A stretch of DNA of 4,874 bases from a virus (taxonomy: Duplodnaviria; Heunggongvirae; Uroviricota; Caudoviricetes). The stretch lies in the IMG/VR virus record IMGVR_UViG_2700989171_000006; one strand, given 5' to 3'. Both the position numbers and the translations under genes were made by a program. This document shows, piece by piece, positions 1 through 4,662 of this stretch. Positions within the stretch are counted from its first letter, which is position 1; every line of letters starts with the position of its first letter. Below the pieces are notes generated by a model. That model saw only the letters and a program-made list of their open reading frames with translations, was not told the DNA's origin and did not search any database.

Positions 1-31
1 AGCGGGCTTGTAATGGGTTAAGTGATAACAG

Positions 32-792
32 ATGTCTGGAAATATAGGGGCAAATCCAGCAATCATCAAACTGTCTTGGATAGAAGCCGCAGTGGATGCG
101 CACAAAACGTTAAATTTCGAACCCAGTGGAAGAAAGCGTATTGGCTTTGACGTGGCTGACAGTGGTACAGATAAGTGCGCTAACGTTTACCGTCACGGAT
201 CCGTTGTTTTCTGGGCCGACGAATGGAAGGCCAAAGAAGATGAATTACTGAAGAGCTGCCAGCGTACTTATCAGGCGGCGCTGGAGCGTGAAGCAGATAT
301 TGTTTACGACTCTATCGGTGTTGGTGCGTCTGCCGGTGCTAAATTCTCTGAAATTAACGCTGACCGGAAGAGCGAGAACGCATACGCGCGACGTGTGAAT
401 TACCAGAGGTTTAACGCCGGTGCTGGTGTGCATGAGCCAGATGACGAGTACAACGGCATCCCCAACAAAGACTTTTTCGCAAATCTTAAGGCTCAGGCAT
501 GGTGGCTGACCGTTTCAGAAATACGTTTAACGCCATTAACAACGGAGAACAGTATCCTGTGGATGAGCTGATCAGCATAGATTCTCGTTGTCCGTTGCTT
601 GAAAAGCTGAAACTGGAACTGACAACACCTCATCGTGATTTCGACCGTAACGGACGTGTGATGGTCGAAAGTAAAAAAGACCTCGCAAAACGCGAGATAC
701 CGTCACCAAACGTTGCTGATGCATTCATTATGGCCTTCGCGCCAATCGATACATCGCTGGATATCTGGGAACAGCTGGGGAGACAGGCCTGA
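32..792 (+). CDS. Terminase large subunit, C-terminal nuclease domain; reading frame interrupted (ORF pieces 32..571 and 499..792), so possible pseudogene or indel error
   Basis: The frame of 32..571 encodes motifs typical of the RNase-H-like nuclease domain of large terminases (RIGFDVADSGTDKCA, ADIVYDSIGVGA). The frame of 499..792 encodes the conserved C-terminal acidic motif (SPNVADAFIMAF) and ends in a TGATG stop/start overlap with the next gene. The two pieces are in different frames, with the switch needed between about 490 and 571. Stop codons occur in all three + frames within 11..47, so an upstream ATPase domain cannot be continuous with this ORF as sequenced. Confidence 0.75.
777..782 (+). 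promoter_or_regulatory. Shine-Dalgarno-like GGGGAG for the portal gene
   Basis: GGGGAG lies 9 nt upstream of ATG 792..794. Confidence 0.5.
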
Positions 793-2258
793 TGGCACGA
801 AACAAACAAGCCCTGCGGCGAACTGTGCAGGCCACAGCTGATGGTTATGAGAATTTTATTGCCCGAGTAGGGATGCAGACACCTAACCAGCACTCAGCAT
901 CCACCTACCGGGCTAATTTCACCAGTCGTAACCGCATGCTGGTGGAATGGTCCTATCGTTCATCCTGGATCATCGGCGAAGCAGTCGATGCTATCCCGGA
1001 TGATATGACCCGCAAAGGCATTCGCATCACTTCGGAAATTGATGCAAAAGATCGTGGCATTCTCGAATCACAACTGGATGAGTTGCAAATCTGGGATGCG
1101 CTGAATGACGTGCTGAAATGGTCGCGCCTCTACGGCGGCGCGGTGGGTTTCATCATGATTGAGGGGCAGGCACCAATGACCCCGCTGCGACCCGAAACCA
1201 TCGGTAAGGGCAAGTTTAAGGGGATTCTCCCGCTCGACCGCTGGATGGTCGACCCGGCACTGACCCGCCGCATTAAAGATATGGGGCCGGACCTGGGTAA
1301 ACCTGAGTTTTACGATGTGGTGACCACAGCAACGGGAATTCCTGCCTGGCGCATTCATCACAGTCGCCTGATTCGCTTTGATGGCGTCACGTTGCCATTT
1401 CAGCAGAAGATGACCGAGAACGAATGGGGAATGTCGGTTGTAGAGCGTATCTGGGATCGTCTTACCGCGTTCGACAGCGCTACTGTCGGCGCGGCGCAGC
1501 TGGTCTACAAGGCGCATTTGCGTACCTACAGCGTGGAGAAGCTACGCGAGCTTATCGCACTTGGTGGTCCTGCGTATGAAGCGTTGCTGAAGAATATCGA
1601 CCTGATTCGACAGTTCCAGAGTAATGAAGGCATGACGCTCATGGACTCGCGGGATAAGTTTGAAACCCATCAGTACAGCTTCAGTGGTCTGGATGACATC
1701 CTTTCGCAGTTTGCAGAACAGATTAGTGGCGCTGTTGGTATCCCACTGGTGCGGTTGTTCGGACAGTCCCCGAAAGGATTTTCTACCGGTGATGCAGACC
1801 TTGCCAACTATTACGATCGCATCAGTTCGTTGCAGGAGAGGCGTTTACGTCTTCCGGTGCGGCGGATACTGGACATCATGCATCGTTCGGAACTTGGCAA
1901 GCCGCTGCCGGACGATTTCACGTTTGAGTTTAACCCGCTCTGGCAAATGTCTGATGTCGATCGCTCAACGGTGGCGTTAAACACCACCAACGCAATCAGT
2001 ACGGCGATGGGTGATGGTCTGATGACACTGAAAGCCGCTATGACTGATTTGCGAGAAAATTCTGACGTAACCGGCATAGGGGCATCCATTACCAACGAGG
2101 ACATCGAGAATGCCGAAGATGAAGCGCCGCCCGGCATCGGCGAACCTGATGACGAACCGCAGGAGCCGTCAGGCGGAAATCCGGTATCGAACCAGCCTAC
2201 GCAGGATAGCGAGGGCGGTCGGAGACATCGTAAATGGTCGCTACGATGGTTCAAATGA
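792..2258 (+). CDS. Phage portal protein (DUF1073-like family as recalled)
   Basis: 488-aa ORF with GGGGAG 9 nt upstream. Its ATG overlaps the terminase stop (TGATG at 790..794). It sits in the canonical slot between terminase and the MuF-like gene. Size and sequence character fit portal proteins, and it ends in an acidic low-complexity tail (EDEAPPGIGEPDDEPQEPSGG...). The last ~50 codons overlap the next gene. Confidence 0.8.
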   Translation: MARNKQALRRTVQATADGYENFIARVGMQTPNQHSASTYRANFTSRNRMLVEWSYRSSWIIGEAVDAIPDDMTRKGIRITSEIDAKDRGILESQLDELQIWDALNDVLKWSRLYGGAVGFIMIEGQAPMTPLRPETIGKGKFKGILPLDRWMVDPALTRRIKDMGPDLGKPEFYDVVTTATGIPAWRIHHSRLIRFDGVTLPFQQKMTENEWGMSVVERIWDRLTAFDSATVGAAQLVYKAHLRTYSVEKLRELIALGGPAYEALLKNIDLIRQFQSNEGMTLMDSRDKFETHQYSFSGLDDILSQFAEQISGAVGIPLVRLFGQSPKGFSTGDADLANYYDRISSLQERRLRLPVRRILDIMHRSELGKPLPDDFTFEFNPLWQMSDVDRSTVALNTTNAISTAMGDGLMTLKAAMTDLRENSDVTGIGASITNEDIENAEDEAPPGIGEPDDEPQEPSGGNPVSNQPTQDSEGGRRHRKWSLRWFK

Positions 2259-2895: not shown

Positions 2896-4103
2896 ATGAA
2901 ATACTTTTTTGAGACCAGGCTCGGGGAAACCCGATACCGCCTGGCTGACGGCTCGTTGCTGTGCAAAGACGTGCCGATAGGACGAACAGGTAAGCAGCTC
3001 TATGGTGCTGATGACCTGCCAAAACTGAAACCCGATAAGTTCGTTGAAATAGTCGTCACGCGTTCTCCTGAGCAGGTATTCCATCCGGCCACGCTTGCCT
3101 CATTCGAAGGGATGAGCATCACGATCCTGCATCCTGAAGATGAAAACGGGAATGTGCGGCTGGTAAATCCCGAGAACTGGAAAGTGCTTGCTGTCGGGCA
3201 CCTCCAGAATGTCCGGCGCGGGACGGGTGAGCAGTCTGATTTGATGCTGGCTGACCTTATCGTCAAAGACGAAAGCGCCATTCAGCTTATCGAAGATGGC
3301 CTGCGCGAAGTGTCGTGCGGCTATGACGCGGAGTACGAGCAGACCGAGCCAGGTAAAGCCGAGCAGGTCGATATTACCGGAAACCATGTGGCTCTTGTCC
3401 CTAAAGGCAGAGCCGGAAATCGTTGTGCAATTGGAGACAGAGACACAATGGCAAATCAAAAGAAAAACTGGTGGAACCGCATGCGTGCGGCCATCAAGAC
3501 AGGAGATGCCGACACCATGAACGAACTGGTGGAGTCGGCTCCCGCATCGGTTACAGGAGATGAGGGGGATTTGCCGCAGGGCGTTAATCTCAACATCAAC
3601 CTGTCCCCGCAGCAACCACTACCGGACAAAGCACCAGAGATGGGCGGAGATCCAACCGGCGACAGTGATGATGACCTCAAAACATTACTGAAAGCCCTGC
3701 TGGCTAAGCTGGAAAGAAATGCCACGGGCGATAACGATAATAAGCCTGACGATAATCCGACCGGTGACGGCGAGGACGATGAAGAGGAAACCACGATTAC
3801 TGGTGACTCAGCCTGGCGTGCCGAAGTTATCGTTCCGGGTATCGATCTGAGCCGTAAGATGAAACCGACCGCGTTCAAACGCGAGGTTCTGGCTTCCGCT
3901 GACAAAACGCTGGTTCGCCAGATAGTCGGTGATGCGGATATCCGCAAATTACCGAAACAATCGGTCGACATGGCGTTTAATGCCGTGTCTGAGGTTGCCA
4001 AAGGGCGAAACACCCGCGCCACCACCGGCGATGCACAGCGCCTAAACATGGGCATGACCAGTATCGCTTCCCTGAACAAACAAAACGCTGAATTCTGGGC
4101 AAA
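2896..4103 (+). CDS. Large acidic head-assembly protein with a DUF2213-like N-terminal domain; putative prohead protease/scaffold; 3' end hidden by the N-run
   Basis: ATG 2896 lies 3 nt after the MuF stop, and 402 codons are readable before the N-run. The N-terminal ~180 aa resemble DUF2213 phage proteins as recalled. The C-terminal half is acidic and low-complexity with a helical-looking stretch (LKTLLKALLAKLERN). The gene occupies the protease/scaffold slot between the MuF and capsid genes. The ORF-track extension through X residues to the stop at 4240..4242 cannot be interpreted. Confidence 0.7.
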
Positions 4104-4222
4104 NNNNNNNNNNNNNNNNNNNNNNNNNNNNNNNNNNNNNNNNNNNNNNNNNNNNNNNNNNNNNNNNNNNNNNNNNNNNNNNNNNNNNNNNNNNNNNNNN
4201 NNNNNNNNNNNNNNNNNNNNNN
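4104..4222. other. Run of 119 N (masked or unresolved sequence)
   Basis: Directly visible: the N characters start at 4104 and end at 4222. Confidence 0.99.
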
Positions 4223-4529
4223 CTCTCGCCCGCAGGACTTAACCGTCGAACCGGTGGTCCTTAAATCCGATAACGCCTTCGCTGCCTATGGCCTGGCTGG
4301 TAAATACGATGATGACGGTTTTTTCGTGCCGCTGGCAGATGGTGATACCGCAGACAAGGTGAAGGGGATCTACGTGCGCCCTTATCCGACCACGTCGCAG
4401 CCGGACATGGTTCGCCAGGTGGGAACAGGCAAGAACTTCCCGGGCGACGCCATGAAGCGTGGCTACGTGACCGTTAATCTCGGTTCTGATTTTGATGCCA
4501 GCACTATCAAAAAAGGCGATCTCCACTGA
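4223..4529 (+). CDS. Small head-module protein (possible decoration/cement-type protein), 5' end hidden by the N-run
   Basis: The frame is open from the first unmasked base to TGA 4527..4529, with coding-like codon usage (CTG, CCG, GGC, GTG rich). GTG 4254 has no convincing Shine-Dalgarno, so the start is probably inside the masked region. Gly/Asp-rich composition. Location immediately upstream of the capsid gene. The functional label is a guess. Confidence 0.55.
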
Positions 4530-4562
4530 TGAATCCATCAAAGTGCCTCTGGGTGGATTCAT
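4529..4562 (+). other. Inverted repeat / potential RNA hairpin (9-bp stem ATGAATCCA / TGGATTCAT, extendable to 11 bp with one G-U pair)
   Basis: Arms 4529..4537 and 4554..4562 are exact reverse complements. The stem includes the last base of the upstream TGA stop and the first two bases of ATG 4561. No T-run follows. Confidence 0.4.
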
Positions 4563-4662
4563 GTCCACGTCAGTCAGTGGCAAAAACGTGGTGCTGACCA
4601 ACGCTGAATTCACAGGTGCCGGTGATGCTGACGGCAATGCAGAAATTTCCTGGAAGATTTAA
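4561..4662 (+). CDS. 33-codon ORF (MSTSVSGKNVVLTNAEFTGAGDADGNAEISWKI), either a small independent gene or the frameshifted C-terminus of the preceding protein
   Basis: ATG 4561 to TAA 4660..4662. Codon usage is coding-like. The same frame is open back to 4471 and contains an alternative ATG at 4495. The track omits it because of its short length. Confidence 0.3.
   Translation: MSTSVSGKNVVLTNAEFTGAGDADGNAEISWKI

What the first reader, a model, noticed from the sequence alone, without database searches (positions are those of the whole stretch)
3433..4103. Possible nested in-frame scaffold gene inside the DUF2213-like ORF
Met185 (ATG 3448..3450) is in frame and preceded by GGAG at 3433..3436 (11-nt spacer). 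It sits exactly at the boundary between the N-terminal DUF2213-like domain and the acidic, helical C-terminal half. This mirrors the lambda C/Nu3 and Mu I/Z arrangement, in which a scaffold is translated from an internal start within the protease gene.
Basis: inference. Interest (0 to 1): 0.5.

Follow-up and report, generated by a model that had tools for sequence, protein, structure and literature searches.

The report
Scaffold gene nested in phage protease gene
A prophage head gene that encodes a capsid-maturation protease fused to a scaffolding domain very probably also makes the scaffolding half on its own from an internal start codon; lambda, Mu and herpesviruses do the same, but this has not been described for this large phage family.

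Summary
GGAG lies at 3433-3436, followed by 11 nt and then ATG 3448-3450, which is Met185 in frame. Met185 sits three residues after the end of the Pfam DUF2213 match.

In this window alone the signal is not above chance. The comparative evidence is strong.
- 37 of 38 lineages below 70% identity keep a Met in the otherwise variable linker. The single exception has GTG.
- A Shine-Dalgarno (SD) motif travels with that codon: mean -6.8 kcal/mol against -2.6 for other internal ATGs.
- Synonymous codons are chosen to build the SD, and local mRNA structure is low.
- In the window's own clade, the lowest synonymous diversity of the whole gene falls on codons 173-187.

Best reading: a protease-scaffold fusion plus a co-terminal nested scaffold protein of about 24 kDa. 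This is a new member of a known kind (lambda C/Nu3, Mu I/Z, herpesvirus UL26/UL26.5). No protein data exist, and this particular prophage looks defective.

The parts
2896..4103 (+). Full-length ORF encoding the prohead protease-scaffold fusion, 406 aa and 44.4 kDa in the near-identical locus L001. The stop codon is hidden in the N-run 4104-4222.
   Evidence: ORF list. RefSeq annotation of the 99.8% identical locus. Pfam DUF2213 and PHROG 'head maturation protease' families.
2941..3438 (+). DUF2213 domain (residues 16-181), predicted to have the assemblin / T4 gp21 prohead-protease fold.
3130..3132 (+). His79 codon (CAT), a candidate catalytic histidine, invariant in the family.
   Evidence: Invariant column in alignment A2. 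The catalytic role is inferred, not tested.
3313..3315 (+). Ser140 codon (TCG), the candidate nucleophile, invariant in the family.
   Evidence: Invariant in A1 and A2. It lies at the start of strand 138-151, which forms a hairpin with strand 154-168 carrying His164. Inferred.
3385..3387 (+). His164 codon (CAT) in the invariant G-N-H motif, the candidate third member of the triad.
   Evidence: Invariant in A1 and A2. Inferred.
3361..3465 (+). Zone of suppressed synonymous variation (codons ~156-190) spanning the internal ribosome-binding site.
   Evidence: In 12 sequences of the window's clade, the 9-codon windows at codons 173-187 have the lowest synonymous diversity of the gene (0.02 against a gene mean of 0.23).
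3433..3436 (+). Shine-Dalgarno core GGAG, built from the Gly180 codon GGA and the first base of the Asp181 codon GAC.
   Evidence: Sequence. Duplex energy -6.4 kcal/mol. GGA is used at this Gly in 8 of 9 lineages where the Met is at most 3 residues after Asp, against 2 of 14 where it is further away; background GGA use is 11%.
3448..3450 (+). Internal in-frame start codon ATG (Met185).
   Evidence: Invariant in 121 close homologues. A linker Met is present in 37 of 38 lineages and GTG in the other. The local mRNA is unstructured and A-rich.
3448..4103 (+). Nested co-terminal ORF encoding the proposed scaffolding protein (222 aa, 24.0 kDa, pI 4.8, starting MANQKKNWWNR). Its end is hidden in the N-run.
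3667..3714 (+). Amphipathic helix (residues ~258-273, DLKTLLKALLAKLE). It aligns with the Pa193 gp24 helix that forms the pentamer under the capsid five-fold vertices.
   Evidence: AF2 helix 74-89 of the nested product. Local alignment to Pa193 gp24. Pa193 residues 286-326 were modelled in PDB 9B40 (PMC11456595). The alignment is weak.
3787..4023 (+). Compact helical C-terminal domain (residues ~298-376) that carries the conserved RAE..PG and related motifs.

Best explanation
Gene 2896-~4116 encodes a capsid-maturation protease fused to a scaffolding domain.
- The protease domain covers residues 1-181. It has the assemblin / T4 gp21 fold, with candidate catalytic residues His79, Ser140 and His164.
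- The scaffolding domain is the acidic, largely helical C-terminal half.

A second ribosome-binding site inside the gene lets ribosomes start at Met185. It consists of GGAG at 3433-3436, ATG at 3448 and an unstructured, A-rich downstream stretch. Starting there yields a 222-residue (24 kDa) scaffolding protein identical to the C-terminal half of the fusion.

Proposed mechanism (inferred): the free scaffold is made in excess, because the internal site is the stronger of the two. It co-assembles with the major capsid protein. A few copies of the full-length fusion enter the procapsid through the shared C-terminal part, which places the protease inside. After assembly the protease degrades the scaffold and itself. 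Fragments may stay bound under the vertices, as seen in phage Pa193.

Shown here: the fold, the domain boundary, and the family-wide conservation of a start codon, an SD and low mRNA structure at the junction.
Inferred: actual initiation at Met185, the ratio of the two products, the catalytic residues, and the assembly pathway.
For: 1. A start codon is conserved in a non-conserved linker.
- 116 of 129 representatives have a Met within 12 residues after the domain-end motif, against 19.6% for other windows (binomial 1e-66).
- 108 of 108 proteins in a second set have one.
- 37 of 38 DNA lineages have one, and the exception has GTG.
- The position varies from 1 to 18 residues after the motif. In long Cys-rich linkers the Met stays next to the K-rich helix, not next to the protease domain.

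2. An SD accompanies the ATG.
- Mean duplex energy is -6.8 kcal/mol, against -2.6 for 316 other internal in-frame ATGs (Mann-Whitney 4e-17).
- 26 of 37 lineages fall in the top decile of all codon positions (binomial 3e-18).
- The spacing is 5-8 nt in 26 of 37.

3. Synonymous choice favours the SD.
- Resampling the 7 upstream codons gives -7.0 observed against -4.8 expected (Wilcoxon 1e-7).
- The Gly codon is GGA in 8 of 9 lineages against 2 of 14 (Fisher 7e-4).

4. mRNA structure around the ATG is low: mean z +1.37, Wilcoxon 4e-11. In the window's near-identical relative L001 it is -8.6 against -14.9 kcal/mol, and downstream A-richness is in the top 0.3%.

5. In the window's own clade the minimum of synonymous diversity falls at codons 173-187.

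6. The internal SD is stronger than that of the 5' start: -6.4 against -4.4 in the window, and -6.8 against -4.2 on average (p 4e-4).

7. The N-domain has a protease fold, and PHROG families annotate it as head maturation protease.

8. There is no separate scaffold gene between the MuF-like gene and the cement and capsid genes, either here or in Pa193, KpV79, RHEph06 and S1249. In each of those four phages the junction Met has the best or near-best SD of all internal Mets.

9. Residues 286-326 of Pa193 gp24, a family member (E 2e-11), were modelled inside the capsid.
Against: - No protein, ribosome-profiling or N-terminal data exist for any family member. None was found.
- In the window alone the SD is ordinary (8.7th percentile), its 11-nt spacing is long, and two other internal codons score as well.
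- K/E/D-rich linkers are purine-rich for compositional reasons. This inflates SD-like and low-structure scores, and only the synonymous-site tests control for it.
- The catalytic geometry was not checked, because no model coordinates were available.
- The low synonymous diversity could reflect a recombination block.
- The prophage in this window is probably defective: IS2 in TerL and frameshifts in TerL and in the cement gene.
Confidence: 0.78

Rival explanations
1. The gene makes a single polypeptide only. It would be a protease-scaffold fusion like phage P2 gpO, with any free scaffold produced by autoproteolysis. The linker Met and SD-like sequence would be by-products of linker composition or ancestry.
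For: The window-only statistics are unremarkable. Purine-rich codons for K, E, D and G naturally resemble an SD. No shorter product has been reported. The Pa193 authors could not tell whether gp24 is cleaved.
Against: Composition does not explain several observations:
- A Met is kept in 37 of 38 lineages at a floating position, and is replaced by GTG in the one exception.
- GGA is chosen specifically when the Gly codon is at SD distance.
- The SD remains in excess after synonymous resampling.
- The minimum of synonymous diversity falls at the site.
Confidence: 0.12
2. The conserved nucleotide element at the junction has another role. It could be an SD-like pause site that aids folding of the protease domain, a recombination joint between exchangeable protease and scaffold modules, or a Met-containing autocleavage site.
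For: Synonymous conservation extends over about 35 codons (156-190), wider than a ribosome-binding site needs. The junction is a domain boundary. Herpesvirus proteases cleave at the corresponding 'release' site (established knowledge).
Against: A pause site or recombination joint does not need an ATG or GTG. A cleavage site does not need an SD at 5-8 nt upstream, low mRNA structure, or a GTG-encoded Val as substitute. These roles are also not exclusive of internal initiation.
Confidence: 0.07
3. Internal initiation occurs, but at another in-frame codon of this gene: Met208 (ATG 3517) or TTG226 (3571). Both have SD-like sequences as good as or better than Met185.
For: The SD duplex energy is -7.4 kcal/mol for both.
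Against: Neither is conserved as a start. Column 208 is Leu, Met, Phe or Val, a hydrophobic helix position with Met in 19%. Both lie inside predicted helices of the C-half. Only the junction Met is conserved family-wide.
Confidence: 0.03

Closest known systems
Pseudomonas phage Pa193 gp24 (PDB 9B40 chain G; Pbunavirus), 'putative scaffolding protein'
   Same: It belongs to the same protein family: profile hit E 2e-11 over the N-domain. It has the same gene order, with a MuF-like gene, then the DUF2213 gene, then the cement and DUF2184 capsid genes. Its C-half is acidic and helical. It has an internal Met195 (MSLKKAKQK) preceded by GAGGG 7 nt upstream, at the same junction. Residues 286-326 were seen under the capsid five-fold vertices.
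   Different: It is only distantly related, with the C-halves barely alignable. The paper describes neither a protease domain nor an internal start. Pa193 is a virulent 66-kb phage, whereas the window comes from a ~40-kb temperate SEN34-like (Brunovirus) prophage.
Phage Mu genes I/Z and phage lambda genes C/Nu3 (established knowledge; not retrieved in the held library)
   Same: The scaffold is translated from an in-frame internal start within the protease gene, so the two products share a C-terminus. The gene sits between the portal or minor-head genes and the major capsid gene. A MuF-like gene is adjacent here, as in Mu.
   Different: There is no detectable sequence relationship: Pfam gives only DUF2213, even at E <= 10. 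Lambda C belongs to the ClpP/SppA-like (S49) class, not the assemblin fold.
Herpesvirus UL26 / UL26.5 (assemblin-scaffold fusion plus a nested, more abundant scaffold)
   Different: Herpesviruses use a separate internal promoter and transcript. Here an internal ribosome-binding site on the same mRNA is proposed. There is no sequence similarity. The triad equivalence was not verified in three dimensions.
Phage T4 gp21 prohead protease (PDB 5JBL)
   Different: T4 gp21 has no scaffold domain; the scaffolds gp22, gp67 and gp68 are separate genes. hhalign finds no sequence similarity.
Phage P2 gpO (established knowledge)
   Same: It has an N-terminal protease and a C-terminal scaffold in one polypeptide.
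   Different: P2 gpO is thought to act as a single product processed by autoproteolysis, with no nested gene.

Membership tests
Pfam PF09979 (DUF2213) / PHROG 1961, 12864, 530 | Significant match to the family profile | tested here: met
   PF09979 E 2.4e-41, residues 16-181. phrog_1961 E 4e-194 over the full length. phrog_12864 and phrog_530, both 'head maturation protease', E 2e-70 and 5e-51.
Nested protease/scaffold gene pair (lambda C/Nu3, Mu I/Z, herpesvirus UL26/UL26.5 type) | The N-terminal part of the long product is a capsid-maturation protease | tested here: inconclusive
Nested protease/scaffold gene pair (lambda C/Nu3, Mu I/Z, herpesvirus UL26/UL26.5 type) | The C-terminal part acts as the capsid scaffold, and no other scaffold gene is present in the head module | tested here: met
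   No other ORF lies between the MuF-like gene and the cement and capsid genes. The C-half is acidic and helical. The C-half of homologue Pa193 gp24 is bound inside the capsid. Scaffold function in this phage is inferred by homology.
Nested protease/scaffold gene pair (lambda C/Nu3, Mu I/Z, herpesvirus UL26/UL26.5 type) | An in-frame internal start codon with its own ribosome-binding site lies at the protease/scaffold junction and is conserved | tested here: met
Nested protease/scaffold gene pair (lambda C/Nu3, Mu I/Z, herpesvirus UL26/UL26.5 type) | Two co-terminal polypeptides are actually produced, with the short one in excess | not testable with these tools
   This needs protein or ribosome-profiling data. 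The only indirect support is that the internal SD is stronger than the 5' SD.
Assemblin / T4 gp21 / HK97 gp4 prohead protease sequence families (Pfam Peptidase_S21, S77/U9, S78) | Sequence-profile match to one of these families | tested here: not met
   No Pfam hit other than DUF2213 at E <= 10. hhalign against T4 gp21 gives probability 0.2%. The resemblance is at fold level only.
Assemblin / T4 gp21 / HK97 gp4 prohead protease sequence families (Pfam Peptidase_S21, S77/U9, S78) | Ser/His(/His or acid) catalytic residues superimpose on those of the solved proteases | not tested

The most novel reading that the evidence does not exclude
The DUF2213 genes would be the phage counterpart of herpesvirus UL26/UL26.5: an assemblin-fold Ser/His/His protease fused to the scaffold, with a co-terminal nested scaffold gene conserved across thousands of tailed phages. 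Those phages include the therapeutic Pbunaviruses and the XM1/Pam3-type myophages. On this reading, the 'protease-scaffold fusion plus excess nested scaffold' expression strategy is an ancestral trait of the HK97-lineage capsid-maturation module, rather than several independent inventions.
Probability: 0.25. Interest if true: 0.7.

Novelty: new member of a known kind. Interest (0 to 1): 0.5.

Why it matters
This family is large: 6189 cluster representatives at E <= 0.001, and 517 phage records. It is mostly annotated as 'DUF2213' or 'hypothetical'.

Structural papers on phages with this head module left the question open. The XM1 paper says the scaffold gene is 'yet to be identified' and proposes an unrelated protease. 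The Pa193 paper calls gp24 a putative scaffold, without noting a protease domain or asking how free scaffold arises.

A conserved nested scaffold gene would supply both missing functions from one locus. It would add a missing protein-coding gene to thousands of annotations. It would explain the stoichiometry problem, with few proteases and many scaffolds. It would also give an experimentally simple handle for procapsid assembly studies and phage engineering: one start codon and one silent SD change.

Tried and rejected
- hhalign of the family alignment against T4 gp21 found no similarity, so catalytic residues could not be aligned by sequence.
- Pfam at E <= 10 gave no protease family and no scaffold family for either half.
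- I looked for natural 'split' versions, with the scaffold as a separate gene. The 210-222-aa proteins starting at the junction Met (P0144, P0379, P0388, P0400 and others) turned out to be uninformative. They are contig-edge calls (L169-L172 begin 0-21 nt upstream of the ATG), a Sodalis entry that is probably a pseudogene (not checked), or a poor assembly (L173).
- The scan of genome contigs with alignment A1 failed because no stretch was conserved enough.
- The Pa193 supplementary mass-spectrometry tables are not held.
- The Tn-seq paper that calls DUF2213 'essential' in Burkholderia concerns a prophage gene and says nothing about mechanism.
- The Felix O1 paper is irrelevant, as it describes an S49 protease.
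- Literature searches for an internal start in this family returned nothing. Liu & Mushegian 2004 is not held.
- Met208 and TTG226 were rejected as alternative starts because they are not conserved.

Full report
**Context**

The window is the head-morphogenesis module of a SEN34-like (Brunovirus-type) temperate myophage integrated in E. coli. In order it holds:
- the 3' part of the large terminase gene;
- a DUF1073 portal gene (792-2258);
- a MuF-like minor head gene (to 2892);
- the DUF2213 ORF (from 2896);
- a gp24/XM1-gp53-type cement gene;
- the start of a DUF2184 major capsid gene (4674-).

The same module occurs in 339 of 5426 complete E. coli genomes. The N-run 4104-4222 hides the stop codon of the DUF2213 ORF and the start of the cement gene. 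In the 99.8% identical locus L001 the protein has 406 residues.

**Checking the observation**

The sequence contains GGAG at 3433-3436, an 11-nt spacer, and ATG at 3448-3450, which is codon 185 in frame. The Pfam DUF2213 match ends at residue 181, so the Met lies at the domain boundary as stated.

Taken alone, the site is not remarkable:
- Its anti-SD duplex energy (-6.4 kcal/mol) is at the 8.7th percentile of codon positions in the ORF.
- Met208 and TTG226 score -7.4.
- Synonymous resampling gives p = 0.27.

**Comparative evidence for a start codon**

I aligned 134 full-length representatives of 50%-identity clusters (35-61% identical to the window protein) with the window protein (135 sequences). 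The protease domain ends in a nearly invariant G-R-x-G-x-R-C-x-I-x-D motif. The next conserved element is a basic helix (W/F-x-D-R). The linker between them varies in length and sequence.

- 127 of the 135 aligned sequences have a Met in that linker.
- By a stricter count, 116 of 129 have a Met within 12 residues of the motif. Other 12-residue windows of the same proteins contain a Met in 19.6% of cases (binomial 1e-66).
- In a second, independent set, 108 of 108 have it.
- Where a Cys-rich insert lengthens the linker, the Met stays next to the basic helix rather than the protease domain.
- The residues after the Met are typically A/S/T/K followed by lysines.

**Evidence at the DNA level**

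Eighty diverse IMG/VR loci reduce to 38 lineages below 70% identity.

- 37 of the 38 have the linker ATG.
- SD duplex energy upstream of it averages -6.8 kcal/mol, against -2.6 for 316 other internal in-frame ATGs (Mann-Whitney 4e-17).
- 26 of 37 lie in the top decile of all codon positions of their own gene (binomial 3e-18).
- The SD core moves with the ATG. Examples are AAGGAG-6 nt-ATG in the common G-D-K-E-P-x-M form, and GAGGAG, AAGGAG or AGGAGG next to ATGs that lie 7-18 residues downstream. Spacing is 5-8 nt in 26 of 37 lineages. The window's class (GGAG + 11 nt) accounts for 5.
- The one lineage without Met (L102) has GGAG-8 nt-GTG at the same place.

Amino-acid composition alone does not explain this:
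- Resampling synonymous codons of the seven upstream residues gives an expected -4.8 against the observed -7.0 kcal/mol (Wilcoxon 1e-7).
- The conserved Gly of I-G-D uses the rare codon GGA, which creates GGAG, in 8 of 9 lineages where the Met is at most 3 residues after Asp. It does so in only 2 of 14 where another SD is used. Background GGA use is 11% (Fisher 7e-4).

Other hallmarks of a ribosome-binding site are also present:
- The 60 nt around the ATG are less structured than the rest of the gene (mean z +1.37, Wilcoxon 4e-11). In the window's near-identical relative L001, the site is at the 3.6th percentile for structure, and the downstream 18 nt are in the top 0.3% for A content.
- Within the window's own clade (12 genes, 84-99% nucleotide identity), the lowest synonymous diversity of the whole gene falls on codons 173-187: 0.02 against a gene mean of 0.23.
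- Four distant annotated phages with the same module were checked: Pa193, KpV79, RHEph06 and S1249. In each, the junction Met has the best or near-best SD of all internal Mets.

**What the two halves are**

His79, Ser140 and His164 are invariant. Ser140 and His164 lie on adjacent strands of a hairpin. Their order and spacing resemble the herpesvirus His/Ser/His triad, a comparison made from memory and not verified in three dimensions. Foldseek, hhalign and Pfam do not detect the relationship. The protease assignment therefore rests on fold, genomic position and the PHROG annotation.

The nested product would be 222 residues, 24.0 kDa, with pI 4.8. It is predicted as:
- two N-terminal helices;
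- acidic disordered stretches;
- an amphipathic helix (DLKTLLKALLAKLE);
- a confident compact helical C-terminal domain.

A profile of the family hits one solved entry, PDB 9B40 chain G, which is Pa193 gp24 (E 2e-11). In that phage a helix-turn-helix from residues 286-326 of gp24 forms pentamers under the capsid five-fold vertices, and the authors call it a putative scaffold. That helix aligns, weakly, with the amphipathic helix here. No other candidate scaffold gene exists in the module.

**Mechanism proposed**

Two co-terminal products come from one gene. One is a low-abundance protease-scaffold fusion, started at ATG 2896. That start has a weak SD (-4.4) and lies 3 nt after the stop of the MuF-like gene. 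The other is a more abundant scaffold started at ATG 3448. The shared C-terminal part would target the protease into the procapsid. Proteolysis would then clear the scaffold.

This is the logic of lambda C/Nu3, Mu I/Z and herpesvirus UL26/UL26.5 (PMC11565193). The herpesvirus case also shares the predicted protease fold. Actual initiation, the ratio of products and catalysis are all inferred.

**Rival explanations**

- A single polypeptide with free scaffold made only by autoproteolysis, as in P2 gpO. This does not explain the ATG/GTG conservation or the synonymous-site signals.
- A pause site, recombination joint or cleavage site. These would not need a start codon with a correctly spaced SD. 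They are not exclusive, though, and the wide zone of synonymous conservation (codons ~156-190) leaves room for an additional element.
- Initiation at Met208 or TTG226. Neither is conserved.

**Novelty**

I found no paper describing an internal start in this family. The XM1 paper states that the scaffold gene is unidentified and proposes another protease. The Pa193 paper does not mention a protease domain. The arrangement itself is classical, so I rate this a new member of a known kind, with moderate interest.

**Caveat for this locus**

The prophage in the window appears defective:
- an IS2 end abuts the terminase gene at position 58;
- a 7-nt deletion frameshifts the terminase gene;
- a 17-nt deletion frameshifts the cement gene.

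The DUF2213 ORF itself differs from L001 at only 4 positions.

Noticed in passing
window 1-58: The first 58 bases are the end of an IS2 (IS3-family) element inserted in the large terminase gene. The same junction is present in E. coli FDAARGOS_943 (NZ_CP065615).
   Followed up: partly
window ~499-500 (ORFs 32-571 and 499-792): A 7-nt deletion (TGGTGGC) relative to the intact relative L001 frameshifts the terminase large-subunit gene. Together with the IS2 insertion, this suggests a defective prophage.
   Followed up: partly
window ~4519-4520 (ORFs 4254-4529 and 4492-4662): A 17-nt deletion relative to L001 frameshifts the cement (gp24 / XM1 gp53-like) gene.
   Followed up: partly
window 4104-4222: A run of 119 N hides the stop codon of the DUF2213 gene and the start of the cement gene. 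The corresponding stretch in L001 is only 67 nt, so the mask does not preserve length or reading frame.
   Followed up: partly
window 2110-2258: The MuF-like ORF overlaps the 3' end of the portal gene by about 110-150 nt in another frame. RefSeq starts it at the equivalent of 2149. Neither candidate start has a strong SD.
   Followed up: no
P0157, P0178, P0218, P0269; L136 (IMG/VR): Some family members carry a Cys-rich insert (C-x2-C-x-C-x-C, zinc-ribbon-like) between the protease domain and the internal Met. Its role is unknown.
   Followed up: no
L168 3449-4087 (phage T4 gene 21): T4 gene 21, the best structural match, is itself annotated with an internal translation initiation that yields a shorter protease.
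   Followed up: no
L169-L172 (Logan assemblies): Four independent metagenome assemblies were fetched. Three have a contig end exactly 21 nt upstream of the internal ATG, and the fourth (L170) ends at the ATG itself. This may reflect a junction of sequence variants, that is a module boundary, at this site.
   Followed up: no
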